The notes under the pieces were generated by a model. It did no database searches. It saw only the letters and a program-made list of their open reading frames with translations, and had not been told where the DNA came from. Below, piece by piece: positions 35,279 to 57,655 of a stretch of DNA of 64,000 bases (its first letter is position 1; every line of letters starts with the position of its first letter). Both the position numbers and the translations under genes were made by a program. Origin of the DNA: Bacteroidia bacterium (lineage in GTDB: Bacteria > Bacteroidota > Bacteroidia > NS11-12g > UBA9320); NCBI GenBank assembly GCA_020849295.1, contig JADLGN010000015.1, positions 91,168 to 155,167 of the forward strand, given 5' to 3'.

Positions 35279-35297
35279 TTAATAGGAGGACAAAATC

Positions 35298-42750: not shown

Positions 42751-43914
42751 ATGAACAACATAGAGGAAATATTGTCATGGTGCGAAAAAACAGCTTTCGA
42801 CCTTAACTTTAATCATGCAAAACAATGGAAAAACAATGACAGTAAAAGGGTAATAGTAGGATATCTGCCAATTTATGTACCTCGTGAAATTATCCACGCT
42901 TCAAATGGTATAGCAGTAGGAATAATGGGCACGGGCGATCGTAAGCAAATTATAAAAGGTGACGCATATTATCAGTCGTATATATGCCATTTGCCAAGAG
43001 GAATCATTGAGTTAGCATTAGATAATAATTTAGAAGGTTTTGATGGTTTTCTATTTCCGGCAATTTGCGATTGTGTAAGAAATCTTTCAGGAATGTTCAA
43101 ATTATCAAAAAAAGGAAAATTTCAAAGATATTTTGATTATGCTCAAAACTTTGACCCATTTATTGGAGGCACTTTTTATAAACACGAAATGGAAAAAGTG
43201 CTGGACGATATATATAATGTAAATGGTATAAAGGCAACAAAAGAAAATTTAAACAATGCAATAAAATTATATAATATAAATCGCAGATTGATAGAAGAAA
43301 TATATGATATCAGACAAAAATATCCTTGGAGATTATCTGCTGTTGATACTTATCACTTACTTCGAGCAGGTATTTGCATTACTGTAGAAGAACACAATGA
43401 AATACTGCATAAAATACTTAATGTAATAAGAAATGAAAGAGGCGAAGCTATGGATAATATAAGGGTAGTAGTTTCTGGTTCATTTTGCGAACAACCGCCT
43501 GTAGGACTGATTAAGTCTATTGAAATGGCGGGTTGTTATATTGTTGATGATGACTTTATGCTTGGATCACGCTGGATACAAGGTGATATTGCCGATAATA
43601 CTGACGACCCACTTGGAGCAATTACTGATGCATATCTAAATCAAAGCACATTTTCATCATGCTATTACGATGTTGGAAATCCAAAAGGAAAAAGACTTGT
43701 AGAACTTGTAAAAAGGAGAGAAGCAGATGGTGTAATATTTTCGGCAGCAAGTTTTTGCGATCCGGCATTGTTAGACAGACCAGAAATGCAGAAAGAATGT
43801 GATGTTGCAGGCGTACCTCATATAAATTTCCAATATCACGAAAACACAGGACAGTTCAAAGTAATAAAAGAACAGGCAGGAACATTTTCTGATTCAATAA
43901 AACTTTGGGCATAA
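42751..43914 (+). CDS. 2-hydroxyacyl-CoA dehydratase / benzoyl-CoA reductase BcrC(gamma)-like iron-sulfur subunit (HGD-D family)
   Basis: The N-terminus RVIVGYLPIYVPREIIHASNG matches the family VGY.C.Y.P.E.I.AAG block. Conserved cysteines are AICDC, SGSFCEQ and ASFCDP. Confidence 0.75.
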   Translation: MNNIEEILSWCEKTAFDLNFNHAKQWKNNDSKRVIVGYLPIYVPREIIHASNGIAVGIMGTGDRKQIIKGDAYYQSYICHLPRGIIELALDNNLEGFDGFLFPAICDCVRNLSGMFKLSKKGKFQRYFDYAQNFDPFIGGTFYKHEMEKVLDDIYNVNGIKATKENLNNAIKLYNINRRLIEEIYDIRQKYPWRLSAVDTYHLLRAGICITVEEHNEILHKILNVIRNERGEAMDNIRVVVSGSFCEQPPVGLIKSIEMAGCYIVDDDFMLGSRWIQGDIADNTDDPLGAITDAYLNQSTFSSCYYDVGNPKGKRLVELVKRREADGVIFSAASFCDPALLDRPEMQKECDVAGVPHINFQYHENTGQFKVIKEQAGTFSDSIKLWA

Positions 43915-43954
43915 AATAAAGTAGTAGAAAAAATTAATTTTTAAAAAAAAAGCT

Positions 43955-45256
43955 ATGGCAAATCCAAAAGATGCAGTAAAAGAAAAGAGCATGATTATTC
44001 AAAAAGAAATGCTCGCAAAGCAATTTAACGACCTAAGTAAAGCAAGAGAAACAGGCAAAAAAGTATGTTATACATTCGTTCCGGGGAATTTAATAGAACT
44101 GATATTATCATTTGATATGCTTCCGGTATATCCTGAAATTAATGCATTACAATCGGGTATGAGAAAAAAATCAGCAGGATATATAAAAGATGCTGAGAAA
44201 ATGGGACATTCAGAAGATGTTTGCACTTATGTAAAATGCGATATTGGAATGATGCTAAACGGCAACATTGGACCTACAGGCGAAAAATTGCCAGACCCCG
44301 ATTTATTGCTTTTAAGTTACACAGGTTGTTTTACTTTTCTAAAATGGTTTGAAAACTTAAACCGTTTATATCCAAATGCTGAAATAGCAATGCTTCACAC
44401 TCCGTATCAAGAAGACGGACAAATTACTCAGGAGCAAATTGAATATATGATAAAGCAGCTAAAAGAAGATGTAATACCAAAATTTGAAAAAGTAACAGGT
44501 AAGAAATTTGATGAAGCAAAATTAAAAAAATTGTTAGATAACTCTGTGCAAGCAGAAGATTACTGGGTAAAAATTCTTCAACTTGCAAAAAATAAACCTT
44601 CGCCTATTGATGCATATTTTGCAGGAGTATATTATATGGGACCTATAAATACAGCCTTTAGAGGAAGTGAAGAGTGTCTTGAATATTACAAAGAACTATA
44701 TAAAGAAGTAAAAGAAAGAGCAGATCAAAAACTACTACCTGTAACACCGGAGGGAGAAATGAAACATGAAAGATTCAGACTAGTAGTAGAAGGACCACCA
44801 AATTGGACAAATTTCCGTGAATTTTGGAAAATATTTTATGATATGGGTGCTGTAATTGTAGCATCTACTTATACCAAGGTTGGTGGAGTTTATGATTTGG
44901 GCTATAGGCAAAATCCTGAGAAACCACTTGAAAGCCTTGCTACATATTGCATGGGATGCTATACAAATTTGAATTTACCGCAAAGGGTAGATTTAATTGA
45001 AAAATATGTAAAAGAATATCAGGCAGACGGATTTTTGATAAACTCAATAAAATCTTGTAATTCATTTTCGGCAGGGCAACTTATGATAATGCGTGAAATT
45101 GAACAAAGAACAGGAGTTCCGGTAGGATTTATTGAAAGCGACCTTGTTGACCCACGATATTTTTCTTATGCAAATATCAAAAACAGGCTCGAATCGTACT
45201 TCCAAATGCTTGAGCAACGTAAAATTATTTTATCACAAGAATCATTAACAGTTTAA
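43955..45256 (+). CDS. 2-hydroxyacyl-CoA dehydratase / BcrB(beta)-like subunit (HgdA-type)
   Basis: The motifs KKVCYTFVPGNLIELI and DVCTYVKCDIG are present. The protein is colinear with the paralogue at 49728..50948 (shared AIVASTY and ..IE[SG]DL.D.R blocks). Confidence 0.75.
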   Translation: MANPKDAVKEKSMIIQKEMLAKQFNDLSKARETGKKVCYTFVPGNLIELILSFDMLPVYPEINALQSGMRKKSAGYIKDAEKMGHSEDVCTYVKCDIGMMLNGNIGPTGEKLPDPDLLLLSYTGCFTFLKWFENLNRLYPNAEIAMLHTPYQEDGQITQEQIEYMIKQLKEDVIPKFEKVTGKKFDEAKLKKLLDNSVQAEDYWVKILQLAKNKPSPIDAYFAGVYYMGPINTAFRGSEECLEYYKELYKEVKERADQKLLPVTPEGEMKHERFRLVVEGPPNWTNFREFWKIFYDMGAVIVASTYTKVGGVYDLGYRQNPEKPLESLATYCMGCYTNLNLPQRVDLIEKYVKEYQADGFLINSIKSCNSFSAGQLMIMREIEQRTGVPVGFIESDLVDPRYFSYANIKNRLESYFQMLEQRKIILSQESLTV

Positions 45257-45261
45257 ATAAA

Positions 45262-46686
45262 ATGAGCAAATATTATCTTGGAGTTGACCTTGGCTCCACA
45301 ACATCAAAGTCAGTAATAATAAATGAACAAGACGAGATAATTGGAAGAGGAATTACAAATACTCGTGCAAATTACTCAGTAGCCGCTGATATAGCAAGGG
45401 ATGAAGCAACCTACAATGCAAGATTTTCAATATTAAAGAAAAATCTGGAAGACGAAATAGCTTCAAAGCCTGAATACAAAAAATATATTTCTGATTTAGA
45501 AAGCGTATTTCAATATGAGCAATTCAAAATAAAATTAGATAAACTTGGGGATGAGTTGGTAAAAACATGTAATAATTTTTTTAAAGATGATACTCAAAGA
45601 AATGAAATTTTAGTACATCTTAGAAATATTCGCAAAGCCTTTAAACCAAAGATTAAACATGATTATTTATATAATAATCTTGGAGAAAAAAATCAATTTT
45701 TCAGAGATATAGTTTCCGAAAAATATAATGAAGAAGTGAACAAACTCGAAATGGCATTATTCGAGCCATTAATGACGGTATGGGACAAAAGTATTTCGCC
45801 GGCAGAAAATGAAAGAATAAAATTTGATTTTAAAGAACTTGTTCATAAAGCAATGGAAGAATTAAAAGACAAATACAAGAATTTACCTGATACTGCAGCC
45901 GAAGGAGAGAGTATAAACTTTGACGCAGAGATGAATTTGCTTAAGGGAAATTTCGATCAGGTATCAGAAACTCTTCGTTCACACATTGACCATATTGCCG
46001 AACTTGAATTTCATATTGAAAACATGACAGGAACAGGCTATGGAAGAGCATTATTGCCATTTCCACAAGAATGTATCCGCTCAGAAATTTTGTGTCATGC
46101 ATTTGGAGCACATGCTGTTTTCCCTGATACAAGAACAGTTTTAGACATTGGAGGTCAGGATACAAAGGCAATTCAGGTAGATAAATACGGGCTTGTTACA
46201 TCATTTCAGATGAATGACCGCTGTGCGGCAGGCTGTGGAAGATATTTGGGATACATTGCAGATGAAATGAGCATTTCATTAAATGAATTAGGACCAATGG
46301 CAATGGAAGCACAAAAAGAAGTTAGTATTTGTTCTACATGTACAGTATTTGCCGGAGCAGAATTAAGAGAACTTACAAATCTTGGCGAAAAAAGAGAAGA
46401 TATTTTGGGAGGTTTACACAAAGCAATTATTATGCGTGCCATGTCGCTTATTGCACGTTCAGGAGGAGTCTTTAATGAATTTACATTTACCGGAGGAGTT
46501 GCAAGAAATCCGGCTGTTATAAAATATCTTACACAGCTTGTAAGAGATAATTACGGAAGCGATATAAAAATAAATATTCATACCGATTCTATATTTATGG
46601 GAGCCTTGGGAGGTGCAATGTTTGCCAGAAGAAATATTAATGTTGATTTGCCAAATGCCAAAAAAACACAAGAAGTAACACAATAA
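45262..46686 (+). CDS. BadF/BadG/BcrA/BcrD-type ATPase, large form (BcrA/alpha-like), with an internal K/E-rich helical insertion of about 200 aa
   Basis: Phosphate-1 is YYLGVDLGSTTSKSVII. Later blocks are TGTGYGR and DIGGQDTKAI. The cluster-ligand region is NDRCAAGCGRYLGY...ICSTCTVFAGAE. Confidence 0.75.
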   Translation: MSKYYLGVDLGSTTSKSVIINEQDEIIGRGITNTRANYSVAADIARDEATYNARFSILKKNLEDEIASKPEYKKYISDLESVFQYEQFKIKLDKLGDELVKTCNNFFKDDTQRNEILVHLRNIRKAFKPKIKHDYLYNNLGEKNQFFRDIVSEKYNEEVNKLEMALFEPLMTVWDKSISPAENERIKFDFKELVHKAMEELKDKYKNLPDTAAEGESINFDAEMNLLKGNFDQVSETLRSHIDHIAELEFHIENMTGTGYGRALLPFPQECIRSEILCHAFGAHAVFPDTRTVLDIGGQDTKAIQVDKYGLVTSFQMNDRCAAGCGRYLGYIADEMSISLNELGPMAMEAQKEVSICSTCTVFAGAELRELTNLGEKREDILGGLHKAIIMRAMSLIARSGGVFNEFTFTGGVARNPAVIKYLTQLVRDNYGSDIKINIHTDSIFMGALGGAMFARRNINVDLPNAKKTQEVTQ

Positions 46687-46701
46687 ATTAAAAAAAAAAT
46701 C

Positions 46702-47538
46702 ATGGAAAATTTTTATACTATGGGTATTGACGTAGGTTCTAATTTTATAAAATTAGTACTTATGGACTATTCAGATAATCCAAAATTATTAGATAAACAT
46801 ACTGAAAAAATAAGGAAACGCGACCCATCACAAGTTGCTGAAGAAATGACTCAAAATATGCTTGCCAAGCATAAATTGAAATATGAGGATATAGCTTATT
46901 TTGCTTCTACCGGAGAAGGAGATCTTGTAAAAAGAAAAAGAGGTCATTTTTATGGAATGACAACACATGCCAAAGGAGCACATTTTTTATATTCTGATGC
47001 AATAACTGTGGTAGATATGGGTGCACTTTATGTAAGAGCAATTAAAATATCTGATGATGCAAGAGTATATGATTATAAAATGACCGGACAATGTGCCTCA
47101 GGTTCGGGGCAGTTTGTTGAAAATATTTCACGATATCTAGGTCTGTCAATTGAAGAAGTTGGCGATGTTTCAATGCAATCAAAAAATCCAGAAGTTTCTT
47201 CAGGAATTTGTGCCGTACTTGCCGAAACTGACGTAATTAATATGGTTTCAAGAGGTATATCAACACCTGATATAATAAAGGGAATTCATATTTCAATTGC
47301 CAACAGAATACTTAAACTATTGAGTTCCCTTAAAGCAGAATCGCCTATAGTAGTTACAGGAGGAATGGCATTAAACAAAGGAATGATAGAAGCACTTGAA
47401 GAACAATTGCAGGAAATGGGAAAATCTTTCCAGATTAAATCTCATCCAGATGCAATATATGCAGGTGCTATAGGAGCAGCACTTTGGGGAGGATACAGAC
47501 ATATTAAGCTAAAAGAAAAGCAAGCAGTTCTTGCATAA
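46702..47538 (+). CDS. BadF/BadG/BcrA/BcrD-type ATPase, small form (BcrD/delta- or HgdC-like activase)
   Basis: Motifs are MGIDVGSNFIKLVLMD, TGQCASGSGQFVE, SSGICAVLAETD and VVTGGMALN. The length is 278 aa. Confidence 0.8.
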   Translation: MENFYTMGIDVGSNFIKLVLMDYSDNPKLLDKHTEKIRKRDPSQVAEEMTQNMLAKHKLKYEDIAYFASTGEGDLVKRKRGHFYGMTTHAKGAHFLYSDAITVVDMGALYVRAIKISDDARVYDYKMTGQCASGSGQFVENISRYLGLSIEEVGDVSMQSKNPEVSSGICAVLAETDVINMVSRGISTPDIIKGIHISIANRILKLLSSLKAESPIVVTGGMALNKGMIEALEEQLQEMGKSFQIKSHPDAIYAGAIGAALWGGYRHIKLKEKQAVLA

Positions 47539-47599
47539 GCAATTGTTTTTATTTCATAATTAAAACAAAATTTATGAAATAATAATTTTTGATAGGATA

Positions 47600-49723
47600 A
47601 TGAGCGTACAAAATCAAACAATGAGTATTGAAACAAAAAAACATGAGTTGGATACTCTTTTTAAACCTAAATCAATAGCAATAATTGGAGCATCATCCAA
47701 AGAGCTTTCAATAGGAAATGTTATTATTAAAAATCTTGTTCATTTTAATTATACAGGGAAAATTTACCCAATAAACCCAAAAGAACCTGAAATAAGAGGA
47801 ATAAAAGCATATTCTACAATCTTTGAAGTCCCTGATGATATTGACCTAGCACACGTAATAATACCAAGCAAATTTGTGCCACAGATAATTGAGGATTGTG
47901 GAAAAAAGGGAATAAAATCAGTAATTATCAATTCTGCCGGTTTTAGCGAAATGGGTGATGAAGGTATGGCTTTACAAGAAGCATTTCTACAAAATGCAAA
48001 AAAATACGGAGTTAGAATTTTCGGACCAAATTGTCAGGGAATAATTAATTGCGACCCTGAGTATAATGCATATTGCGATTTTACATTTACATTTCCTAAT
48101 CCGGGCAGCATATCAATTGTAGCACTAAGCGGTGGTGTTGGTGCATTTATAATGCAAAGCCTTTTCGACCTTAATATAGGGATGAGAATGTATGCTTCTA
48201 ATGGTAATGCTTGCGATATTTCTATTTCTGAAGTTATAAAATACTACGGACAAGATGATGGAACTAAAGCAATTATTTTATATACCGAAGGTTTTCATAA
48301 ACCATTAGAATTTTTAAATACTGCAAAACTTGTTGCAAGAAAAAAACCAATTCTTGCAATGAAATCAGGAAGGACAGAAGCAGGAGCAAAAGCAGCAGCT
48401 TCACATACAGGAGCACTTGCAGGTATTGATATTTCTACTGAGTTAATATTTGAAAAAACAGGTGTGTTGTCATTCACAAATGAAGAAGAAATGTGTCAGG
48501 CAGCAATGGCTTTCTCTACACAACCAATTCCAAAGGGCAATAAAGTAGGTATAATTACAAATACAGGCGGACCTGCAGTAATTGCAACAGACGAACTAGT
48601 TAATTCAGGACTTGAGATTCCAGCTATATCAGCAAAAGCAGAAGAAATATTAAAAAATACATTGTTGCCTGAAGCCACAATAGGCAATCCGATTGATGTA
48701 GTTGCTACCGGCGGTGGAGTACATTTTAGAAGTGCACTTGATGTGCTGATGAATGAAAGTCAAATAGACAGTATTTTTATAAATTTTGTAACAGCACCAT
48801 TTACAGATACTGATGAGGTAGCAAGAAATATAGTAGAAGTAAATCAACTTAAGAAGAAACCAATAATTTGTAATTTTATGACAAATATGAGTTTTGAAAG
48901 ATTTCAAAAAACTGCCAAAATACTTCAGGATGGCGGTGTGCCATGTTATAGTTTTCCTACTACTGCAGCTAAAGCTCTTGGAGCATTATACAAATTTCAT
49001 AAAATTCAAAATAGAGAAATTGGCTTCCCTCAGCTTTTTAGGGATATAGACAAAAATACAGTTAAAGAAATTATTGAAAATTCAGCTATTAATGAATTTA
49101 TGTCTTCCGAGAAAGTTTTTAGTATTCTTAAAGCATACAATATTCCTATAGCAGACTGGGGAATAGCATCAAATATAGATACTGCCCATGAAATAGCATC
49201 AAAAATTTCATACCCAGTAGTAGTAAAAGCAGAGGCATCAGATATAATACACAAAAGCGATAAAGGAGGTGTGGCAGTAAATATTAAAAACCAAGCAGAA
49301 TTGATATCGACTATTGAAAATATGAAGAACAATTTTGATAATTCTGCTTTGAAATTTCTTATACAAAAATTTGAACCGGGAGGAAAAGAATTAATAATTG
49401 GAGTTACATCAAATGGAGATTTAGGGCATTTAATAATGTTTGGAATGGGAGGCATTTATGTAGAAATATTAAAAGATGTTGTTTTCAAATTAAGCCCCGT
49501 AACGCAAGTTGAAGCCGAAGAAATGCTATCAACAATTAAATCGTCAAAATTATTAGATGGAGTAAGAGGTCAACAAGGAATTGATAAAAAAAGAGTTATT
49601 GAAATAATTGAAAGGATATCTCAATTGGTAACAGATTTTCCTCAAATAAAAGAAATGGATTTAAATCCTGTAATGGCATTTTCAGATAGAGCTATTGCAG
49701 TTGATGCAAGAATTAAATTATAA
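47600..49723 (+). CDS. ADP-forming (NDP-forming) acyl-CoA synthetase with fused alpha and beta domains (CoA-binding + succinyl-CoA-synthetase-like + ATP-grasp)
   Basis: The N-terminal CoA-binding Rossmann region is SIAIIGASSKELSIGN. The CoA-ligase/flavodoxin-like middle contains a phosphohistidine loop (GAKAAASHTGALAG). The C-terminal ATP-grasp has YPVVVKAEASDIIHKSDKGGV. The length is 707 aa. Confidence 0.8.
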   Translation: MSVQNQTMSIETKKHELDTLFKPKSIAIIGASSKELSIGNVIIKNLVHFNYTGKIYPINPKEPEIRGIKAYSTIFEVPDDIDLAHVIIPSKFVPQIIEDCGKKGIKSVIINSAGFSEMGDEGMALQEAFLQNAKKYGVRIFGPNCQGIINCDPEYNAYCDFTFTFPNPGSISIVALSGGVGAFIMQSLFDLNIGMRMYASNGNACDISISEVIKYYGQDDGTKAIILYTEGFHKPLEFLNTAKLVARKKPILAMKSGRTEAGAKAAASHTGALAGIDISTELIFEKTGVLSFTNEEEMCQAAMAFSTQPIPKGNKVGIITNTGGPAVIATDELVNSGLEIPAISAKAEEILKNTLLPEATIGNPIDVVATGGGVHFRSALDVLMNESQIDSIFINFVTAPFTDTDEVARNIVEVNQLKKKPIICNFMTNMSFERFQKTAKILQDGGVPCYSFPTTAAKALGALYKFHKIQNREIGFPQLFRDIDKNTVKEIIENSAINEFMSSEKVFSILKAYNIPIADWGIASNIDTAHEIASKISYPVVVKAEASDIIHKSDKGGVAVNIKNQAELISTIENMKNNFDNSALKFLIQKFEPGGKELIIGVTSNGDLGHLIMFGMGGIYVEILKDVVFKLSPVTQVEAEEMLSTIKSSKLLDGVRGQQGIDKKRVIEIIERISQLVTDFPQIKEMDLNPVMAFSDRAIAVDARIKL

Positions 49724-49727
49724 AGAA

Positions 49728-50948
49728 ATGTATAAAATACAAAGTACAAAGGTGATGAAGGAAATAATGGGAAATTATTTCCTAGGTATGAAAGATAAAT
49801 CAAAAAAAATAGCATGGTGTACAAGCGTAGGACCAGCCGAACTTTTGCGTTCGTTTGGTTTTGAAGTACATTTTCCTGAAAATCATGGAGCATTGCTTGG
49901 TGCTACACGTACAGCAGGAGATTTAATACCCGAATCAGCAAAATTCGGTTATTCAAATGATATATGTTCTTATCTTACAGCCGATATAGGTTCATATCTG
50001 AAAAGTGAAACGCCACTTAAAGAACATTATGGTCTTGAAGGACCGCCCAAGCCCGATTTGATTGTTTATAACACAAACCAATGTAGAGAAGTACAGGATT
50101 GGTTTACATATTTTGGAAGAGAACTTAATGTGCCTGTTATCGGAATTTATCCACCAAGACATCTTGATGAAGTTACGGATGAAATAATAGAAGATGTTGC
50201 TACACAATTCAGAAAAATGATTCCGATATGCGAAGAAGTAAGCGGACAAAAATTTGATAATGATAAATTCAAAGCAACATTAAAACTAAGCAAAGAAGCA
50301 ACTGACTTATGGAAAAAAGTTCTTTATACTGCTACAAATACTCCGGCACCAATAAGCTTTTTTGATGCAACTATCCACATGGGACCTATAGTAGTTTTAC
50401 GCGGTACACAGCAAGCAAAAGACTATTATATTACATTGCTTAAAGAAATGGAAGAAAATGTAGAGAAAGGAATAGGATTTCTTGAAAAAGAAAAATGCCG
50501 ATTGTATTGGGATGGAATGCCAATTTGGGGCAAGTTGCGTTCATTATCTGACTTATTTGTTCAAAACAATACAGCAATAGTAGCTTCAACATATTGCAAT
50601 AGCTGGGTTTTTGATGCATTTGACGAAGAAAACCCATTTGAATCATCAGCTAAAGCATATACTGAAATTTTTATTAATAGAAGCGAAGAAGCTAAACAAA
50701 GACTTTTAACCGAGTTAATAGAAAAATTTAGGATAGATGGTGTGATTTTTCACGATGCTAAAACATGTGCAAACAATTCTAACTCAAGATTTGGAATGCC
50801 GCAAAGACTTACAGAATCAATAGGAATACCAACATTAATAATAGAAGGCGACCTATGTGATTTGAGATTTTATTCAGAAGGGCAAAGTATTACCAAAATT
50901 GAAACTTTTATTGAGCAAATTGAGAGTACAAAAATTTTAAGTAATTAA
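49728..50948 (+). CDS. Second BcrB/HgdA-type subunit, paralogous to 43955..45256. The ORF-track start at 49695 overlaps the upstream stop by 29 bp, so the ATG at 49728 (or 49755) is more likely the true start.
   Basis: KKIAWCTSVGPAELLRSFG and DICSYLTADIG align position-for-position with the 43955 protein. The blocks AIVASTY and TLIIEGDLCDLR are conserved. Confidence 0.7.
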   Translation: MYKIQSTKVMKEIMGNYFLGMKDKSKKIAWCTSVGPAELLRSFGFEVHFPENHGALLGATRTAGDLIPESAKFGYSNDICSYLTADIGSYLKSETPLKEHYGLEGPPKPDLIVYNTNQCREVQDWFTYFGRELNVPVIGIYPPRHLDEVTDEIIEDVATQFRKMIPICEEVSGQKFDNDKFKATLKLSKEATDLWKKVLYTATNTPAPISFFDATIHMGPIVVLRGTQQAKDYYITLLKEMEENVEKGIGFLEKEKCRLYWDGMPIWGKLRSLSDLFVQNNTAIVASTYCNSWVFDAFDEENPFESSAKAYTEIFINRSEEAKQRLLTELIEKFRIDGVIFHDAKTCANNSNSRFGMPQRLTESIGIPTLIIEGDLCDLRFYSEGQSITKIETFIEQIESTKILSN

Positions 50949-50960
50949 TATAATAAAGGT

Positions 50961-51416
50961 ATGGATACTGAAAACAAAAGTAAAGTTTATAAACTCACAG
51001 ACGGAAGTGAGGTAGATTCAAATCAAGTTGAAAAACTAATTCAGGACACATGCCATTACGTAAAATATGTTGTTATTAACCAAAATGATAAAAACGAAAA
51101 TGTAGCTTTTATTTTTCCCGATAAAAACCTTTACAACAATCCCGATTATCTTTTGGCACCTAATGACAATGAAGGTTGTTTTTGCCCACGAAACCTTGAT
51201 GAGCTTGGAAGATGTCTTACAGGGTGTATGAAAAAGGTTAATTTGAGTTTTGAAAATATTGAAGATAAATTTTCAAATGCAGTGATTTTATCAGGAGAAA
51301 ACGAAATAGAAAACGAAGTAGAAAAGTATAAGAATATTTTAAAAAATTCATTGGGGAATGAAATTTCAGATGATGAAGTATATTATATCAAAAACTTAAA
51401 GGAAAAAAAGAAGTAA
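50961..51416 (+). CDS. Hypothetical small cysteine-containing protein (C-x-C...C...C in EGCFCPRNLDELGRCLTGC)
   Basis: The 151-aa ORF is tightly packed between cluster genes (12 bp and 6 bp gaps). It has no signal peptide, and no family is recognised. Confidence 0.4.
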   Translation: MDTENKSKVYKLTDGSEVDSNQVEKLIQDTCHYVKYVVINQNDKNENVAFIFPDKNLYNNPDYLLAPNDNEGCFCPRNLDELGRCLTGCMKKVNLSFENIEDKFSNAVILSGENEIENEVEKYKNILKNSLGNEISDDEVYYIKNLKEKKK

Positions 51417-51422
51417 AAATTA

Positions 51423-53273
51423 ATGAAAAAATCATCAAAATTAAAAGTTGGTATTGTAGGAATAGGTCCGGTTGGGATGATAATGGCTGTAAAACTAAAT
51501 GAGGCAGGTTGTGAAGTGGCACTTTGCGATAAAGATGAATTTAAAGTAAAAAAAGTAAGAGAAAACGGAATAGTACTTGAAAATATTTATAATTCAACTA
51601 CAAAGTTTGAACATATTTACAATTCTGTAACAGAGATGAGAAAACTTGATTTGGATTATCTTGTTTTTGCATTAAAATCATATCAAACACTTGGAGCAGC
51701 AAAAGAAGCAGAAATTCTCAATTCTGAAAAACTTACAGTAATTGCAGCTCAAAACGGTATAGATACAGAACAAATACTTGCATCAGTTTTCGGTGAAAAT
51801 AAAACACTGAGAATGGTTATAAATTATGCAGGAAATCTTACATCGCCCAATACAGTTAAAGTAACTTTTTTTACCCCACCCAACTATATAGGTTCTATAG
51901 ACGACAGCATAACCGAACAATCAAAAATATTTACATCATTACTTAATGAAGTAAATTTTGAAACAGTTAATCTCAATTCGTTTGAAATACTAAAACGTAC
52001 TTGGGAGAAAACTATTTTGAATGCATCGTTAAGTCCACTGTGTGGGGTAGGAAGACTAACTATGGCAGAAGCAATGTCTGACCCTGAAACAGTTGAACTA
52101 GTTGAGCAAATTATAAATGAGGGAATAGAAGTAGCAGAAAGAGAAAAAATACGTTTCTCAGACGATTTTTATCGAAAATGCCTGCAATATTTAAAAAAAG
52201 GTGGAGAGCATTTCCCATCATTAGCAATAGATTTAATTAATAACCGCCAGACAGAAATTGATTATTTCAACGGAAAAATTGTAGAATATGGGAAAAAACA
52301 TTATGTAAAAACCTCATTGAATTTAGCATTTACAAACATGGTAAAAGCTATGACTAATAAAAACGTAATGAACAGGTCAATTGCTTCAGATGCAGTTTTA
52401 AACAAGAAAATAGTAAGTAAAGGTTTAATAGAAAAAAATAATTCCTCATTATATTATAAAGAGCAAAATTGTTTTCTGGGGATTGACCTTGGCTCAGCAT
52501 ATACCAAGTTTACAGTTATAAATGCAAAAGGGAAACCCGTATTCAGGTACTTTGTTCACACAATGAACAAAGACAGAAATGCTATGAAAAATGTAATTCA
52601 GGCTATATATTCAACATTTAATATTAAATACAGTTGCGCTACAGGTTATGGCAGAAAACACTTTACTGATACAGATATTATTAAAACCGAAATAAACTGT
52701 GCAGCTGCAGGAGTTGCAGAATATCACGATGGTGAAAAAAACATAATAGATATCGGTGGCGAAGATATAAAGGTTATACATTGTAATAATGATAATCAGG
52801 TTGCAAATTTTTACATGAATGATAAGTGTGCTGCCGGTACAGGTGCATTTTTACAGGAAATATCAGAAAGAGCAGAAATTAAAATTGAAGATATGAGCAG
52901 CCTTGCTTCACATTCTGATTTCGACAAAGAATTAAACAGCTTTTGTACTGTTTTTGCAAAAACTGAAATTATGAATTGGGTTTTTGACGGAATGCCAATG
53001 CAAGATATTGCAAGAGGTATTTATATATCAATAGCCAATAAAGTAGCAAAAATGAGATTAATACCGGGTTTGCCAATTATTATGATTGGTGGTGTAATTG
53101 CGCATCATCCTTATATGAGTACAATACTAAGCCAGAAATTTAATAAGGATATTAAAACCATTGAACACCCTCAGTTTGTTGTGTCACTTGGTGCTGCTAT
53201 AATTGCAAAACAAACATGGGCAAACGCAAATGAAAAAATTGATTTAAATAAAGAGATTAAACTACCAGCATAA
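51423..53273 (+). CDS. Fusion protein: an N-terminal ketopantoate-reductase-like (ApbA/PanE family) NAD(P)-binding 2-oxoacid reductase domain joined to a C-terminal BadF/BcrA/HgdC-type ATPase (activase) domain
   Basis: N-terminus: KVGIVGIGPVGMIMAVKLNEAGCEVALCD (Rossmann GxGxxG). The ApbA-like middle and C-terminal helical domain carry SLAIDLINNRQTEIDYFNG (ApbA E/N substrate block). C-terminal half from about aa 345: CFLGIDLGSAYTKFTVI, DIGGEDIKVI, DKCAAGTGAFLQEISE, NSFCTVFAKTEI. Confidence 0.7.
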   Translation: MKKSSKLKVGIVGIGPVGMIMAVKLNEAGCEVALCDKDEFKVKKVRENGIVLENIYNSTTKFEHIYNSVTEMRKLDLDYLVFALKSYQTLGAAKEAEILNSEKLTVIAAQNGIDTEQILASVFGENKTLRMVINYAGNLTSPNTVKVTFFTPPNYIGSIDDSITEQSKIFTSLLNEVNFETVNLNSFEILKRTWEKTILNASLSPLCGVGRLTMAEAMSDPETVELVEQIINEGIEVAEREKIRFSDDFYRKCLQYLKKGGEHFPSLAIDLINNRQTEIDYFNGKIVEYGKKHYVKTSLNLAFTNMVKAMTNKNVMNRSIASDAVLNKKIVSKGLIEKNNSSLYYKEQNCFLGIDLGSAYTKFTVINAKGKPVFRYFVHTMNKDRNAMKNVIQAIYSTFNIKYSCATGYGRKHFTDTDIIKTEINCAAAGVAEYHDGEKNIIDIGGEDIKVIHCNNDNQVANFYMNDKCAAGTGAFLQEISERAEIKIEDMSSLASHSDFDKELNSFCTVFAKTEIMNWVFDGMPMQDIARGIYISIANKVAKMRLIPGLPIIMIGGVIAHHPYMSTILSQKFNKDIKTIEHPQFVVSLGAAIIAKQTWANANEKIDLNKEIKLPA

Positions 53274-53280
53274 AAATATA

Positions 53281-54543
53281 ATGAGAGCATTTCACGACAA
53301 AGAAAAAGGTATAGGTATAATATTCGATGATATTTATTTTGTTAACGGAGCAAGAACTCCGTTTGGAAAATATTGCGGAACACTTGCAAATGTATCGCCT
53401 ACAGATTTAGGAATTTTTGCCAGTAAAGCAGCAATTAATAAAAGTAATATTTCAGCAGATAAAATTGACCAGGCAGTTATGGCAAATATTGGTCAGTCTT
53501 CAGGCGATGCATATTTTTTCCCTCGTCATGTTTCATTATTTGCAGGATTGCCGGTTACTGTACCTGCACTTATGGTTCAAAGAATATGTGCATCCGGATT
53601 TGAAACTATAATTACTTCTGCCGAGCAGATTACACTTGGCAAAGCCGATTCAACACTATGCTGCGGTGCAGAAAGTATGTCACTTTCACCAACCGTAAGT
53701 TTTGGCAACAGAATGGGTTATATGCTTGGTCGCCCTGTTTTTAAAGATATGCTTTGGGAAGCTTTAGACGATACCGCAGCAGGTTATCCAATGGGTTTTA
53801 CAGCAGAAAATATTGCAGTAAAGCACAATATTAGCAGGCAACAGTGTGACGAATATGCTCTAATATCTTTTAACAGAGCTATTGCAGCAAGAAACAAAGG
53901 ATTTTTTAATGAAGAAATTACACCTATCAATTCTACGGTATTTGAAGCAGATGGTTTAAAATCACGAAAAGTTAAACTAACTGGAGGAGTAAAAGATTTT
54001 AATATTGACGAACAAATAAGAGAAACCACATTAGAATCATTGTCAAAATTGCCAAATGTATTTAAAGAAGTAGGAGTACTGTCAGCTGGTAATTGCAGTG
54101 GCATTGTTGATGGAGCAGCAGCAGCAGTTGTAGCATCTGATAGTTTTGTAAAATCAAATAATTTAAAACCCCTTGCAAAAGTGGTAGCCGCTGCAACAAG
54201 TGCAATAGACCCTAAAGTAATGGGGCTGGGTCCGGTACCTGCTATTAAATATTTATTGGAAATTACAGGTTTAAAAATTGATGATATCGGATTGTTTGAG
54301 ATTAATGAAGCATTTTCATCACAGGTAATAGGCTGCGAAATAGAATTAGGACTTGATAGGAATAAACTTAATGTAAATGGTGGTGCAATTGCTATCGGAC
54401 ATCCGCTTGCAGCAAGCGGCTTAAGACTTTCGCTAACACTTATTAGAGAAATGAATCAAAAAAATATAAAATACGGAATTGCTTCTGCTTGTATAGGTGG
54501 CGGACAAGGTACAGCAATTCTTTTTGAAAATTTAAATAATTAA
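53281..54543 (+). CDS. Acetyl-CoA C-acyltransferase (thiolase)
   Basis: NGARTPFGKY with the active-site Cys in RICASGFETI, the motifs NEAFSSQV and GHPLAASG, and the C-terminal CIGGGQGTA are present. Confidence 0.9.
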   Translation: MRAFHDKEKGIGIIFDDIYFVNGARTPFGKYCGTLANVSPTDLGIFASKAAINKSNISADKIDQAVMANIGQSSGDAYFFPRHVSLFAGLPVTVPALMVQRICASGFETIITSAEQITLGKADSTLCCGAESMSLSPTVSFGNRMGYMLGRPVFKDMLWEALDDTAAGYPMGFTAENIAVKHNISRQQCDEYALISFNRAIAARNKGFFNEEITPINSTVFEADGLKSRKVKLTGGVKDFNIDEQIRETTLESLSKLPNVFKEVGVLSAGNCSGIVDGAAAAVVASDSFVKSNNLKPLAKVVAAATSAIDPKVMGLGPVPAIKYLLEITGLKIDDIGLFEINEAFSSQVIGCEIELGLDRNKLNVNGGAIAIGHPLAASGLRLSLTLIREMNQKNIKYGIASACIGGGQGTAILFENLNN

Positions 54544-54547
54544 AAAA

Positions 54548-54727: not shown

Positions 54728-54730
54728 TAA

Positions 54731-55789
54731 ATGCAAAATACTAAAATGTATAAATGGGAAATGATAGAAACTGACAAAGATTTTGTCAGAAAAGAATGTG
54801 ATATTCCTGAAATTGAAGAAAATGAAGCAATAGTAAAAGTTGCAGGATGTGGTGTGTGTCATACAGATTTAAGTTTTTGGCATTTTGGAGTACAAACCAA
54901 AAAATCTTTACCCCTTACTTTAGGACACGAAATAAGCGGAACAGTTGTAGTAGGAGATAGTAGTATTATTGGAAAAAATGTAATTATACCTGCTGTATTG
55001 CCTTGTGGCAACTGCGAATTGTGTAATAATGGAAGAAGTAATATTTGTCGCAATCAACTTATGCCCGGTAATGATTTTGACGGAGGATTTGCATCTCATA
55101 TCAAAGTACCATCAAAATATTTGTGTGAAGTAGATAATGAAATATTGAAAAAATACCCATTAGAAACACTTTCTGTAATTGCTGATGCTATTTCTACACC
55201 TTATCAGGTTGTAAAAAAATCAGAATTGAAAGAAGGAGATTTTGCTATTGTGATTGGAGTGGGCGGTGTAGGAATTTACGGGGCACAAATAGCAAAAATA
55301 TTTGGAGCAAAAGTTCTTGCAATGGATATTAGTGATGAAAAACTAAATGTTGCAAAAGAAAATGGAACAGATGCAGTTTTGAACATAAAAGGAATGGATA
55401 TAAAAACTGTAAAAGAAAATGTTAAAAATATTGCTAAAGAACTTAATGCACCAAAAAATAGTTGGAAAATTTATGAAATATCGGGAACCAAAGCAGGCCA
55501 AGAACTCGCTTTTAATCTTATAACTTTTGCTTCTACATTATCAGTTGTAGGTTTTACAATGGATAAAGTAGATGTAAGACTTAGTAATCTTATGGCATTT
55601 GATGCAAAATTGATTGGCACTTGGGGATGTAAGCCAGAACTATACCCTGAAGTTGTTAAATTGGTATCAGACGGTAAATTAAAAATTGAACCTTTTATTC
55701 AAACATTTCCCTTGTCTCAAATTAATGAAGTATTTAAAAACACATTAGAACATAAATATTCAAAGCGCTCAGTACTTATTCCCGATTAA
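54731..55789 (+). CDS. Zinc-dependent medium-chain dehydrogenase/reductase (ADH_N + Rossmann), a candidate beta-hydroxyacyl-CoA / 6-hydroxycyclohexenoyl-CoA-type dehydrogenase (Had-like)
   Basis: Catalytic Zn ligands are present (GCGVCHTDL, GHE in TLGHEISG). Structural Zn cysteines are CGNCELCNNGRSNIC. The Rossmann motif is VIGVGGVGIYG. Confidence 0.85.
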   Translation: MQNTKMYKWEMIETDKDFVRKECDIPEIEENEAIVKVAGCGVCHTDLSFWHFGVQTKKSLPLTLGHEISGTVVVGDSSIIGKNVIIPAVLPCGNCELCNNGRSNICRNQLMPGNDFDGGFASHIKVPSKYLCEVDNEILKKYPLETLSVIADAISTPYQVVKKSELKEGDFAIVIGVGGVGIYGAQIAKIFGAKVLAMDISDEKLNVAKENGTDAVLNIKGMDIKTVKENVKNIAKELNAPKNSWKIYEISGTKAGQELAFNLITFASTLSVVGFTMDKVDVRLSNLMAFDAKLIGTWGCKPELYPEVVKLVSDGKLKIEPFIQTFPLSQINEVFKNTLEHKYSKRSVLIPD

Positions 55790-55799
55790 TAAAAAAAAT

Positions 55800-56882
55800 A
55801 TGCTTAAAAACCACAATATAACAGAAGTTTCTTATAAAGAAATACTATTCGAAAAAAGACCATGTCTAGATAAAAACGGACAGGCAATAGATGGATTATA
55901 CAACTCATGGATTTGCTTAAATAATCCAAAACAATACAACTCCTACACAACACAAGCTGTAAAAGAAATTATTCTTGCTTTTGGCGAAGCTTCAAACGAT
56001 CGCAGTATAGTTGCAGTTGTTTTTACGGCGGTAGAAGATAAAGCATTTTGTACAGGAGGCAATACAAAAGAATATGCAGAGTATTACTCTGGCAATCCGC
56101 AAGAATACAGCCAGTATATGCGACTATTTAATGACATGGTAAGTGCAATATTAAAATGCGAAAAACCTGTAATTTGCAGAGTAAACGGCATGAGAATAGG
56201 AGGAGGACAGGAAATAGGTATGGCTTGCGATTATACTATATCAAGTGATTTGGCTAGATTTGGTCAGGCAGGACCAAAACATGGTAGTGCAGCAATAGGC
56301 GGTGCTACAGATTTTCTTCATCTATATGTAGGTATAGAAAGAGCAATGATGTCATTAACACTTTGTGAACCTTGGACTGCTCATCAGGCATACAATTTTG
56401 GAATGATAACTGATATTGTACCTGCTCTTAAGCTTGACGGTAAATTTATACCCAACCCATTGGTAGTTTTAGATAAACAAACAGATGAGTTTGGAAAAAT
56501 AGTTTTTGGTACAATGAAAAAAGGTGATGAATTGAAAGCCGGAAAAGAAATAATGGAAAAATCGGAAATAGATTTATCAGAACTTGACAAAGCTGTAAAT
56601 AATCTTATTGCAAAACTTCTTTATACGTTCCCTAATTGTTTATCAAAAACTCTTACAGAAGTAAGAAAGAAAAAACTTGAGCATTGGGATAAAAATAAAG
56701 AAAGCAGCCGCGAATGGCTTGCTCTAAATATGATGACTGAAGCAAAAGCAGGGTTTAGAGCATTTAATTTTGGGCCAAAAGACAACAGAGAAGTTGATTT
56801 TATACTTTTAAGGCAACTTCTTGCCGAGGGTCATGAATGGAATGAAGAACTTCATCAAAAAATTTCACCTCAATATAAATAA
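55800..56882 (+). CDS. Crotonase-fold (enoyl-CoA hydratase/isomerase superfamily) protein, long form of 360 aa. It is a candidate ring-cleaving 6-oxocyclohexenoyl-CoA hydrolase (Oah/BamA-like).
   Basis: The oxyanion-hole blocks are AFCTGGNTKEY and ICRVNGMRIGGGQEIGMACDYTISS. Its length matches the approximately 370-380 aa Oah class rather than 260-aa hydratases. Confidence 0.7.
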   Translation: MLKNHNITEVSYKEILFEKRPCLDKNGQAIDGLYNSWICLNNPKQYNSYTTQAVKEIILAFGEASNDRSIVAVVFTAVEDKAFCTGGNTKEYAEYYSGNPQEYSQYMRLFNDMVSAILKCEKPVICRVNGMRIGGGQEIGMACDYTISSDLARFGQAGPKHGSAAIGGATDFLHLYVGIERAMMSLTLCEPWTAHQAYNFGMITDIVPALKLDGKFIPNPLVVLDKQTDEFGKIVFGTMKKGDELKAGKEIMEKSEIDLSELDKAVNNLIAKLLYTFPNCLSKTLTEVRKKKLEHWDKNKESSREWLALNMMTEAKAGFRAFNFGPKDNREVDFILLRQLLAEGHEWNEELHQKISPQYK

Positions 56883-57655
56883 TGGAAAAAATAAAAGTTA
56901 ATTATTTGTATGAAAATACTGTAGTTCAAATTGTGATGGACGATGGTAAAGGTAATATTTTGGATTCTGTAATGATGAAAGAACTAACAAACTTACTTGA
57001 TAGTTTTAAAACAAATAATAATCTGAAATTAATAATTTTTGAAGGAGCAGGCAAACACTATTCGTTTGGTGCAAGTGTAGAAGAGCATAAAAAAGACGAA
57101 GCTGCTCAAATGCTTAAATCATTTCATAACTTATTTTATTTGTTAATAGAATTGTCAATTCCAACCTTATCAAAAGTTAGTGGACAGTGCCTTGGAGGAG
57201 GAATGGAACTTGCCATTATGTGCAATTTTATTTATGCTGATAATACAGCAAAATTAGGACAACCCGAAATTGTTCTCGGAGTTTTTCCACCCCCTGCTTC
57301 ACTTATTTTACCTCAAAAAATTGGTCAAGCTCAAGCTGATGAATTATTATTGACAGGTAAATCAATAAACGCACAACAAGCAAAATCAATAAATTTAATT
57401 AATGAAATTTTTGAAAGCAAAGAAGAACTTCAAAATGGGTTAAACTCATTTATTGAAAATCAAATTTTACCAAAAAGTGCTTCATCACTACGTTTTGCAG
57501 TAAAAGCAGCAAGAAAAACTTTTAATAAAATATTGCTTGAAAATCTCCCTCAATTAGAAGAAATGTATGTTTCACAATTGATGAACACCAATGATGCTAA
57601 TGAAGGTATAAATTCTTTTCTCGAAAAACGCAAACCTGTTTGGGTTGGATCGTAG
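56882..57655 (+). CDS. Enoyl-CoA hydratase (crotonase family, canonical about 260 aa); Dch-like candidate
   Basis: IIFEGAGKHYSFGASVEEH and SKVSGQCLGGGMELAIMCNFIYA match the crotonase A-x-x-G-x-D and GGG-x-E motifs. The start overlaps the upstream stop by 1 bp. Confidence 0.8.
   Translation: MEKIKVNYLYENTVVQIVMDDGKGNILDSVMMKELTNLLDSFKTNNNLKLIIFEGAGKHYSFGASVEEHKKDEAAQMLKSFHNLFYLLIELSIPTLSKVSGQCLGGGMELAIMCNFIYADNTAKLGQPEIVLGVFPPPASLILPQKIGQAQADELLLTGKSINAQQAKSINLINEIFESKEELQNGLNSFIENQILPKSASSLRFAVKAARKTFNKILLENLPQLEEMYVSQLMNTNDANEGINSFLEKRKPVWVGS

What the first reader, a model, noticed from the sequence alone, without database searches (positions are those of the whole stretch)
42751..47538. 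Gene order gamma-beta-alpha-delta (387/433/474/278 aa) mirrors bcrCBAD, with one ATPase carrying a roughly 200-aa charged helical insertion
Simple 2-hydroxyacyl-CoA dehydratases need one homodimeric activase gene, hgdC. This cluster has two clearly different ATPases back to back: one of 474 aa with a long K/E-rich insertion between the phosphate-1 loop and the TGTGYGR block, and one of 278 aa of canonical HgdC/BcrD size. Both retain the cysteine pairs that would ligate the inter-subunit [4Fe-4S] cluster (NDRCAAGCG / CSTCTV and GQCASGSG / SSGICAV). Two unlike ATPases preceded by two unlike HGD-D subunits, in the order C-B-A-D, is the Thauera-type BCR operon layout. The insertion in the large ATPase has no counterpart that I can recognise. 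It could be a docking or regulatory module.
Basis: partly seen in the sequence, partly recalled or inferred. Interest (0 to 1): 0.75.

Follow-up and report, generated by a model that had tools for sequence, protein, structure and literature searches.

The report
Benzoyl-CoA reductase operon in Bacteroidia
The four genes encode an ordinary Thauera-type ATP-driven benzoyl-CoA reductase in an uncultured Bacteroidia bacterium, and the "odd" 200-residue insertion in one ATPase is the normal hallmark of the BcrA subunit, though its structure and function are still unknown.

Summary
Four co-directional ORFs of 387/433/474/278 aa sit exactly where stated. They are two HGD-D proteins followed by two unlike BcrAD_BadFG ATPases, and both ATPases keep the cluster cysteines. 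The BCR reading is supported. BcrC, BcrB and BcrD pass NCBIfam equivalog cut-offs. had, oah and a dch-like gene lie in the same 13-gene operon. A canonical gammaproteobacterial cluster (had-oah-dch-bcrCBAD-fdx) is 47–67 % identical subunit by subunit.

The claim that the insertion has no counterpart is wrong:
- The curated BcrA model (432 positions) aligns end to end with the protein.
- The insertion alone matches that model at E = 6.5e-11.
- All BcrA homologues of 429–459 aa carry it, with invariant FFRD, DKS and EN motifs.

The exact protein is already in NCBI as "benzoyl-CoA reductase subunit A". What distinguishes this clade:
- No linked ferredoxin or KGOR.
- An ADP-forming acyl-CoA synthetase in the operon.
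- A conserved third HGD-D plus a PanE-activase fusion.

Verdict: a new member of a known kind, of low-to-moderate interest.

The parts
42751..43914 (+). bcrC (gamma subunit, 387 aa, HGD-D family)
   Evidence: TIGR02263 BcrC scores 452.8 bits, above the 421.15 cut-off. Best solved relative is MbdN, E 2e-58, with Cys79/106/246/336 aligned to MbdN cysteines. It is 49 % identical to BcrC of the canonical locus L052.
43955..45256 (+). bcrB (beta subunit, 433 aa, HGD-D family)
   Evidence: TIGR02260 BcrB scores 674.5 bits, above the 486.55 cut-off. Best solved relative is MbdO, E 8e-58, with Cys90/125/368 aligned to MbdO cysteines. It is 67 % identical to L052 BcrB.
45262..46686 (+). bcrA (alpha subunit, 474 aa, HgdC-type ASKHA ATPase with an inserted helical domain)
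   Evidence: TIGR02259 BcrA is the best hit and aligns 4-455 to model positions 3-432 of 432, but scores 438.5 bits, below the 578 cut-off. The sequence is 100 % identical to the NCBI entry 'benzoyl-CoA reductase subunit A [Bacteroidia bacterium]'. It is 47 % identical to L052 BcrA over the full length.
45424..46008 (+). BcrA-specific helical insertion (residues ~55-249), lying between helix alpha1 and strand beta4 of ASKHA domain I
45907..45963 (+). Clade-specific extension (~19 aa, ESINFDAEMNLLKGNFDQV) inside the insertion
   Evidence: It is present only in the Bacteroidota/Ignavibacteria clade rows of alignment A1. The preceding loop (residues ~207-217) has low pLDDT. Together with the C-terminal tail it accounts for 474 aa versus about 438 aa.
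46213..46239 (+). BcrA cluster-ligand motif NDRCAAGCG (Cys321)
   Evidence: Cys321 is invariant in A1. It aligns with HgdC Cys127.
46330..46347 (+). BcrA cluster-ligand motif CSTCTV (Cys360)
   Evidence: Cys360 is invariant in A1. It aligns with HgdC Cys166.
46702..47538 (+). bcrD (delta subunit, 278 aa, HgdC-sized ATPase)
   Evidence: TIGR02261 BcrD scores 320.6 bits, above the 312.85 cut-off. The protein has only two cysteines, Cys131 and Cys170, and both sit at the HgdC Cys127/Cys166 positions. It is 52 % identical to L052 BcrD.
47600..49723 (+). ADP-forming acyl-CoA synthetase (707 aa), same operon
   Evidence: Pfam finds CoA_binding_2, Succ_CoA_lig, Ligase_CoA_2 and ATP-grasp_5. Among related loci this position is occupied alternately by this gene or by an AMP-forming ligase.
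49695..50948 (+). Third HGD-D protein (417 aa, HadB-like), same operon
   Evidence: The best family is the HadB alpha subunit, at 224.9 bits against a cut-off of 750. The best solved relative is 3o3m_A at E 4e-51. It is conserved next to bcrCBAD across the clade.
50961..51416 (+). 151-aa ORF, a stand-alone homologue of the C-terminal domain of an AMP-forming acyl-CoA ligase
   Evidence: It is 37 % identical (E 6e-29) to residues 416-552 of the L001 ligase. It matches no Pfam or NCBIfam family.
51423..53273 (+). PanE/ApbA-like reductase fused to a third HgdC-type activase (616 aa)
   Evidence: Pfam finds ApbA, ApbA_C and BcrAD_BadFG, and TIGR00241 scores 171 bits. In L029 the two halves are separate genes, with the activase next to the third HGD-D.
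53281..54543 (+). Thiolase (420 aa)
   Evidence: TIGR01930 scores 397 bits, above the 240.55 cut-off.
54731..55789 (+). had (6-hydroxycyclohex-1-ene-1-carbonyl-CoA dehydrogenase, 352 aa)
   Evidence: TIGR03201 scores 461.2 bits, above the 338.65 cut-off. It is 50 % identical to L052 Had.
55800..56882 (+). oah (6-oxocyclohex-1-ene-1-carbonyl-CoA hydrolase, 360 aa)
   Evidence: TIGR03200 scores 588.7 bits, above the 464.45 cut-off. It is 61 % identical to L052 Oah.
56882..57655 (+). dch-like enoyl-CoA hydratase (257 aa)
   Evidence: TIGR03189 is the best hit but scores 221.4 bits, below the 292.5 cut-off. It is 36 % identical to L052 Dch.

Best explanation
The four genes encode a class I, ATP-dependent benzoyl-CoA reductase of the BCR (Thauera/Rhodopseudomonas) type, BcrCBAD. 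They are the first four genes of a 13-gene benzoyl-CoA degradation operon (42751-57655) on the chromosome of an uncultured Bacteroidia bacterium.

Inferred mechanism, by homology to characterised BCR/HAD enzymes:
1. BcrA and BcrD form a heterodimer that shares one [4Fe-4S] cluster, held by Cys321/Cys360 of BcrA and Cys131/Cys170 of BcrD.
2. A low-potential donor, not encoded nearby, reduces this cluster.
3. ATP binding and hydrolysis drive the electron to the Fe-S clusters of the catalytic BcrB/BcrC dimer.
4. Benzoyl-CoA is reduced there to cyclohexa-1,5-diene-1-carbonyl-CoA.
5. The co-operonic Dch-like hydratase, Had and Oah convert this product to 3-hydroxypimelyl-CoA.

The ~195-residue insertion in the 474-aa ATPase is the conserved alpha-subunit-specific helical domain that all BcrA-type proteins carry. 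Here it has a ~19-residue clade-specific extension. Its most conserved residues (alpha1, FFRD, DKS, EN) probably form the base that packs on ASKHA domain I, and the long helical hairpin is variable. Its function is unknown. My guess, held with low confidence, is that it makes the dimer asymmetric, either as a partner-contact surface or as a nucleotide-coupled lever.
For: Shown here:
- ORFs and domains.
- BcrC, BcrB and BcrD pass their equivalog cut-offs, and BcrA aligns end to end as the best hit.
- Had and Oah pass their equivalog cut-offs, and Dch is the best hit for the last gene.
- The insertion alone matches the BcrA model.
- The 50-sequence alignment has invariant residues inside the insertion and at the cluster cysteines.
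- The canonical locus L052 (kor, had-oah-dch-bcrCBAD-fdx) is 47-67 % identical per BCR subunit.
- The nearest solved structures for all four proteins are the MbdONPQ subunits.
- A natural BcrA-BcrD fusion protein supports an A-D dimer.
- The same operon occurs in 50 species-level genomes.
- The flanks are typical Bacteroidota genes and GC content is uniform.
- A Bacteroidia MAG was reported to express anaerobic benzoyl-CoA degradation enzymes (PMC8099898).

Inferred, not shown: electron flow, ATP coupling and the product. These rest on established knowledge of class I BCRs (PMC11971306).
Against: - BcrA scores below the NCBIfam equivalog cut-off (438.5 against 578), because the insertion is only 14-22 % identical to that of other BcrAs.
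- The Dch-like protein is also below its cut-off.
- No ferredoxin or 2-oxoglutarate:ferredoxin oxidoreductase gene lies in the window or within 10 kb of the cluster in any of 51 related loci, unlike the canonical cluster.
- No member of this clade has been studied biochemically, so the substrate range is unproven.
Confidence: 0.85

Rival explanations
1. It is a BCR-type aryl-CoA reductase whose physiological substrate is not benzoyl-CoA but a substituted or related aromatic acyl-CoA, for example a hydroxy-, methyl- or halo-benzoyl-CoA. Such a substrate might be fed by the co-operonic third HGD-D / PanE-activase / CoA-ligase module.
For: BcrA and Dch fall below their equivalog cut-offs. The clade is only 47-67 % identical to canonical subunits. 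The operon carries extra enzymes not found in canonical clusters. In L001 a molybdenum hydroxylase of the xanthine dehydrogenase family lies immediately upstream.
Against: BcrB, the subunit homologous to the substrate-binding HAD alpha subunit, passes the BcrB equivalog cut-off by a wide margin (674 against 487). Had and Oah, which act on the unsubstituted ring products, also pass theirs. Characterised BCRs accept several analogues anyway, so this rival differs from the main explanation only in degree.
Confidence: 0.1
2. The insertion is a novel docking or regulatory module peculiar to this protein.
For: The domain has no solved structural counterpart. The clade has a private ~19-aa extension and a C-terminal tail.
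Against: The insertion is homologous to, and co-linear with, the insertion of all BcrA-type subunits, and it shares invariant FFRD/DKS/EN motifs with them. Only the small extension is clade-specific.
Confidence: 0.03
3. It is a 2-hydroxyacyl-CoA dehydratase with two activator genes, not a reductase.
For: The proteins belong to the same superfamily. HadB and HadC are the second-best family hits.
Against: HadB and HadC score 205 and 152 bits against cut-offs of 750 and 700, whereas BcrB and BcrC pass their own cut-offs. The ring-pathway genes had and oah are in the operon. The alpha ATPase carries the BcrA-specific domain.
Confidence: 0.01
4. The 474-aa ORF is an assembly or frameshift artefact that joins two genes.
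For: None found.
Against: The ASKHA core is split by the insertion (residues 3-54 and 250-461 both match one 269-aa ATPase), not concatenated. The same architecture occurs in 50 independent genomes and more than 120 protein clusters. AlphaFold2 gives a single confident fold with pTM 0.83.
Confidence: 0.01

Closest known systems
Thauera aromatica BcrCBAD / Rhodopseudomonas palustris BadDEFG (BCR-type class I benzoyl-CoA reductase). Represented here by NCBIfam TIGR02259-02263 and by the Inmirania thermothiophila locus L052.
   Same: The gene order is C-B-A-D. Subunit sizes are 387/433/474/278 aa here against 390/436/436/281 aa in L052. The alpha subunit has the same inserted helical domain with the same invariant motifs. 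The cluster cysteines are present in both ATPases. BcrD has the same degenerate phosphate-2 motif (GAL-x-x-R). had, oah and dch are linked.
   Different: The insertion is 14-22 % identical, against 61-70 % for the core. There is an extra ~19 aa and a C-terminal tail. had-oah-dch lie downstream rather than upstream. No ferredoxin or KGOR is linked. An ADP-forming acyl-CoA synthetase, a third HGD-D protein, a PanE-activase fusion and a thiolase are inserted between bcrD and had. The host is Bacteroidota rather than Proteobacteria.
Thauera chlorobenzoica 3-methylbenzoyl-CoA reductase MbdONPQ (PDB 9GAI, 9GAL, 9GBA), MBR-type
   Same: It is the nearest solved structure for all four proteins. The ATPase core superposes with a TM-score of 0.90 normalised to MbdQ. 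It is also a permanent heterotetramer type (PMC11971306).
   Different: MbdQ is 269 aa and has no insertion. Sequence scores are far lower than to the BCR-type models (about 200 bits against 450-675 bits).
Aromatoleum BzdNOPQ (BZD-type)
   Same: Same superfamily and the same overall reaction.
   Different: The BzdN/O/Q equivalog models score only 83-141 bits against cut-offs of 380-454. The ATPase has no insertion.
HgdC / HadI activators of 2-hydroxyacyl-CoA dehydratases (PDB 1HUX, 4EHT)
   Same: The ASKHA fold, the two cluster cysteines and the phosphate motifs.
   Different: They are homodimers of ~260 aa that interact only transiently and have no insertion. Here there are two unlike subunits.

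Membership tests
Class I benzoyl-CoA reductase, BCR (Thauera) type | Four genes, two HGD-D catalytic subunits followed by two unlike BcrAD_BadFG ATPases, in the order C-B-A-D | tested here: met
   The order is the same as in canonical locus L052.
Class I benzoyl-CoA reductase, BCR (Thauera) type | Subunits C, B and D reach the curated NCBIfam equivalog cut-offs | tested here: met
   452.8 > 421.15 for C, 674.5 > 486.55 for B, 320.6 > 312.85 for D.
Class I benzoyl-CoA reductase, BCR (Thauera) type | Subunit A reaches the curated NCBIfam equivalog cut-off (TIGR02259) | tested here: not met
   438.5 < 578, although it is the best hit and aligns over model positions 3-432 of 432. The shortfall lies in the fast-evolving insertion. 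NCBI accordingly names some clade members BcrA and others only 'BadF/BadG/BcrA/BcrD family'.
Class I benzoyl-CoA reductase, BCR (Thauera) type | The alpha subunit carries the ~170-195-aa helical insertion that is absent from the MbdQ, BzdQ and HgdC types | tested here: met
   The FFRD, DKS and EN motifs are invariant in 50 sequences.
Class I benzoyl-CoA reductase, BCR (Thauera) type | Two cysteines per ATPase at the positions that ligate the subunit-bridging [4Fe-4S] cluster in HgdC. The ligand identity Cys127/Cys166 is recalled from the 1HUX literature and was not re-verified here. | tested here: met
   BcrA C321/C360 and BcrD C131/C170 align with HgdC residues 127 and 166.
Class I benzoyl-CoA reductase, BCR (Thauera) type | Conserved cysteines for Fe-S clusters in both catalytic subunits | tested here: met
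   BcrB C90/C125/C368 and BcrC C79/C106/C246/C336 align with cysteines of MbdO and MbdN. Which of them are ligands was not determined.
Class I benzoyl-CoA reductase, BCR (Thauera) type | Genetic linkage to the dienoyl-CoA pathway (dch, had, oah) | tested here: met
   had and oah are above their equivalog cut-offs. dch is the best hit for the last gene but is below its cut-off. All lie in the same operon.
Class I benzoyl-CoA reductase, BCR (Thauera) type | A linked 2[4Fe-4S] ferredoxin and KGOR electron-donor system. This is typical of the Thauera cluster but does not define the enzyme. | tested here: not met
   There is no homologue in the window or in L001-L051, whereas both are present in L052.
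Class I benzoyl-CoA reductase, BCR (Thauera) type | ATP-dependent two-electron reduction of benzoyl-CoA to cyclohexa-1,5-diene-1-carbonyl-CoA | not testable with these tools
   This needs anaerobic biochemistry.
2-hydroxyacyl-CoA dehydratase with its activator | The alpha and beta subunits reach the HadB/HadC-type equivalog scores, and there is a single homodimeric ~260-aa activator | tested here: not met
   205.5 against 750 and 152.3 against 700. There are two unlike ATPases, one of 474 aa.
MBR- or BZD-type class I BCR | The subunits reach the Bzd equivalog scores, and the alpha ATPase has no insertion | tested here: not met
   BzdN 82.7, BzdO 104.8 and BzdQ 140.9 bits against cut-offs of 380-454. 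The insertion is present.

The most novel reading that the evidence does not exclude
The BcrA-specific helical domain is a fold with no solved counterpart. It could be the docking platform for the physiological electron donor, or a nucleotide-coupled lever that makes the ATPase dimer asymmetric. In this Bacteroidota/Ignavibacteria clade there is no dedicated ferredoxin or KGOR, and the domain has diverged most and gained an extension, so it may have been re-tuned to a different donor. Alongside this, the conserved single HGD-D protein plus PanE-like reductase-activase module in the same operon may be a new ATP-activated radical enzyme that feeds or drains the benzoyl-CoA pathway.
Probability: 0.15. 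Interest if true: 0.6.

Novelty: new member of a known kind. Interest (0 to 1): 0.27.

Why it matters
For the finding as flagged, it matters little. The operon is a recognisable BCR-type benzoyl-CoA reductase that public pipelines already annotate, and the insertion is the family hallmark.

It has modest value for three reasons:
1. It documents a large, uncultured clade of class I BCR operons in Bacteroidota and Ignavibacteria from groundwater, lake, peat and reactor metagenomes. This widens the set of likely anaerobic aromatic degraders beyond Proteobacteria and Firmicutes.
2. The BcrA-specific domain is confidently predicted, carries invariant motifs and has no solved structure. It is a defined target for whoever solves a BCR-type complex.
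3. The clade's operon lacks the usual electron-donor genes and carries an unexplained third HGD-D / reductase-activase module.

Tried and rejected
- **Paper behind PDB 9GAI:** two literature searches did not find it in the library.
- **HgdC cluster ligands:** the search for a paper stating Cys127/Cys166 found nothing relevant. That assignment is from memory. Only the alignment positions were verified.
- **A named Thauera aromatica BcrA or R. palustris BadF sequence:** I did not obtain one. The representative clusters carry no names, and the two extra homology searches returned mostly MAGs plus Inmirania, Azospirillum and Emcibacter. The curated NCBIfam model and the Inmirania locus were used as canonical anchors instead.
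- **AlphaFold database search:** afdb50 was not available, so predicted-structure relatives of the insertion were not surveyed.
- **Geometry of the models:** coordinates are not returned. I could not measure where the insertion sits relative to the nucleotide cleft, the cluster or the catalytic dimer.
- **Multimer prediction:** not available.
- **Rejected readings:** artefactual gene fusion; 2-hydroxyacyl-CoA dehydratase with two activators; extended coiled coil. On the last, the isolated domain folds with pTM 0.80 as a multi-helix bundle, not a single long coil.
- **Promoter:** a possible Bacteroidetes -7 box (TAATTTTG, 42688-42695) lies upstream of bcrC. In sequence of about 30 % GC this is weak evidence, and it was not pursued.


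Full report
**Observation.** All are on the + strand, with gaps of 40, 5 and 15 nt. Pfam assigns HGD-D to the first two and BcrAD_BadFG to the last two. Against solved structures, the 474-aa protein matches the 269-aa ATPase MbdQ, and also HadI and HgdC, in two pieces, residues 3-54 and 250-461. About 195 residues are therefore inserted into a single ASKHA core, not appended to it. The insertion is 36 % charged against 21 % for the core. The quoted cysteine motifs exist in both ATPases.

**What it is.**
- NCBIfam equivalog models for BcrC, BcrB and BcrD are passed: 452.8/421, 674.5/487 and 320.6/313 bits.
- The BcrA model is the best hit for the 474-aa protein and aligns over model positions 3-432 of 432. 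It stays below its cut-off, at 438.5 against 578.
- The Had and Oah equivalogs are passed, and Dch is the best but sub-threshold hit, for the last three genes of the same gene string.
- Thirteen genes from 42751 to 57655 are separated by -29 to 61 nt and form one operon: bcrCBAD, an ADP-forming acyl-CoA synthetase, a third HGD-D protein, a 151-aa ORF, a PanE-like reductase fused to a third activase, a thiolase, a 59-aa ORF, had, oah and a dch-like gene.
- A canonical cluster from the cultured gammaproteobacterium Inmirania thermothiophila (L052) reads kor, had-oah-dch-bcrC(390)-bcrB(436)-bcrA(436)-bcrD(281)-fdx. Its products are 49, 67, 47 and 52 % identical to the four window proteins, and 50, 61 and 36 % identical to Had, Oah and Dch.
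- The nearest solved structures of all four proteins are the subunits of 3-methylbenzoyl-CoA reductase MbdONPQ.

**The insertion is not novel.**
- The insertion alone (residues 50-250) hits positions 51-225 of the curated BcrA model at E = 6.5e-11.
- In an exhaustive search of 1.84 billion representatives, only four clusters at the 50 % level align in one stretch across residues ~3-457. They are 437-473 aa long. Everything else matches only the core.
- Homologues of one of these are annotated BcrA in Alphaproteobacteria, Burkholderiales, Bradyrhizobium, Acidobacteria, Thermincola, Syntrophobacteraceae, Inmirania and Azospirillum, all 429-460 aa.
- In a 50-sequence alignment the insertion is co-linear throughout. 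It contains the invariant residues F83, F146-F147-R148-D149, D175 and E182-N183, in addition to the invariant cluster cysteines C321 and C360.
- The insertion evolves fast: 14-22 % identity to non-clade BcrAs against 61-70 % for the core. This explains the sub-threshold BcrA score, and why NCBI names some clade members only "BadF/BadG/BcrA/BcrD family".
- The Bacteroidota/Ignavibacteria clade adds about 19 residues (216-234) and a C-terminal tail, which accounts for 474 aa against about 438 aa.

**Mechanism.**
- Shown here: both ATPases keep the two cysteines that align with HgdC residues 127 and 166. BcrD has no other cysteine at all.
- Shown here: BcrA keeps canonical phosphate-1 and phosphate-2 motifs. 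BcrD has DMGALYVR in place of DIGGQDxK, but canonical BcrD has the same variant, so it is a family trait.
- Shown here: natural BcrA-BcrD fusion proteins exist (P0304, 732 aa), which supports an A-D dimer.
- Shown here: cysteines of BcrB and BcrC align with those of MbdO and MbdN.
- Inferred from established knowledge of class I BCRs: a reduced low-potential donor loads the bridging cluster, and ATP hydrolysis drives the electron to the catalytic dimer. Benzoyl-CoA is reduced there to the 1,5-dienoyl-CoA, and Dch, Had and Oah process it to 3-hydroxypimelyl-CoA.
- The role of the insertion is not established. The invariant residues cluster in alpha1 and in the FFRD/DKS/EN segments, while the long hairpin is variable. 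This suggests a conserved base packed on domain I and a variable tip.

**Distribution and context.** The exact protein is in NCBI as "benzoyl-CoA reductase subunit A [Bacteroidia bacterium]". More than 120 clusters at 83-95 % identity exist. Fifty species-level genomes carry it at 60-95 % identity. All are MAGs, and nearly all are labelled Bacteroidia, Chitinophagales, Bacteroidales, Ignavibacteria or Chlorobiota. The operon structure is conserved across them. The window's flanks encode T9SS cargo proteins, a SusC/SusD pair and FtsH. GC content is uniform, so the cluster is native to a Bacteroidota chromosome. One paper reports a Bacteroidia MAG expressing anaerobic benzoyl-CoA degradation enzymes in a benzene/nitrate reactor (PMC8099898).

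**Differences from canonical clusters.**
- No ferredoxin or KGOR homologue lies in the window or within 10 kb in any of the 51 related loci.
- An ADP-forming acyl-CoA synthetase alternates with an AMP-forming ligase at the same operon position. Where the former is present, a 151-aa stand-alone copy of the ligase's C-terminal domain remains.
- A single HadB-like HGD-D protein and a PanE-like reductase-activase are conserved. They are fused in the window, and in L029 they are separate genes with the activase next to the HGD-D. The function of this module is unknown.

**Verdict.** The claim that the insertion has no counterpart is refuted. This is a new, uncharacterised member of a known enzyme type, already annotated as such by public pipelines. 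Interest is low to moderate. What remains open is the function of the BcrA-specific domain in general, the electron donor in this clade, and the extra HGD-D / reductase-activase module.

Noticed in passing
window 49695-53273 (also L001 14077-17108; L029 14384-15349 and 18341-20365): A third HGD-D protein (417 aa, HadB-like, no beta partner) and a PanE/ApbA-like reductase fused to a third HgdC-type activase (616 aa) are conserved next to bcrCBAD across the Bacteroidota/Ignavibacteria clade. In L029 the reductase (321 aa) and the activase (247 aa) are separate genes and the activase sits next to the HGD-D. The fusion therefore links reductase, activase and dehydratase-like protein into one module of unknown function.
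   Followed up: partly
window 50961-51416: This 151-aa ORF matches no family. It is 37 % identical (E 6e-29) to the C-terminal domain (residues 416-552) of the AMP-forming acyl-CoA ligase that occupies the neighbouring operon position in L001. It is retained (36-61 % identity) in loci where an ADP-forming synthetase has replaced that ligase.
   Followed up: partly
window 47600-49723: An ADP-forming (NDP-forming) acyl-CoA synthetase lies inside the benzoyl-CoA operon. Related loci have either this gene or an AMP-forming ligase at the same place. It could be the acid-activating enzyme or an ATP-conserving step.
   Followed up: partly
whole window and L001-L051: No 2[4Fe-4S] ferredoxin or 2-oxoglutarate:ferredoxin oxidoreductase homologue lies near the cluster in any clade member, whereas the canonical Inmirania locus L052 has both flanking bcrCBAD. 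The electron donor of this clade is unidentified.
   Followed up: yes
window 47014-47037 (BcrD residues 105-112): BcrD has DMGALYVR where BcrA, HgdC and MbdQ have the phosphate-2 motif D-I/M-GGQD-x-K. Canonical BcrD (L052) has DVGALHGR, so this degenerate motif is a BcrD family trait. It hints at functional asymmetry between the two ATP sites.
   Followed up: partly
P0304 (732 aa) and other 715-735-aa hits; P0122 (779 aa): Natural single-chain BcrA-BcrD fusions exist in other lineages. P0304 residues 2-423 match BcrA and residues 437-720 match BcrD.
   Followed up: yes
window 54548-54727: A 59-aa ORF sits between the thiolase and had, with gaps of 4 and 3 nt. It matches no family and is 73 % conserved in L002. 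L001 has an unrelated 126-aa ORF at the same position.
   Followed up: no
L001 1412-7354: In a relative with 86 % identical BcrA, a molybdenum hydroxylase of the xanthine dehydrogenase family lies directly upstream of bcrC on the opposite strand. It comprises a 931-aa Fer2/MoCoBD fusion and an FAD subunit, with XdhC and MobA-like genes. This is reminiscent of 4-hydroxybenzoyl-CoA reductase gene sets. It is absent from the window.
   Followed up: no
window 2900-8413, 10610-12631, 60492-62744, 32135-36710: The flanks encode large T9SS-sorted proteins (PKD repeats with CHU_C; Por_Secre_tail) and a SusC/SusD pair. These confirm a Bacteroidota chromosome.
   Followed up: yes
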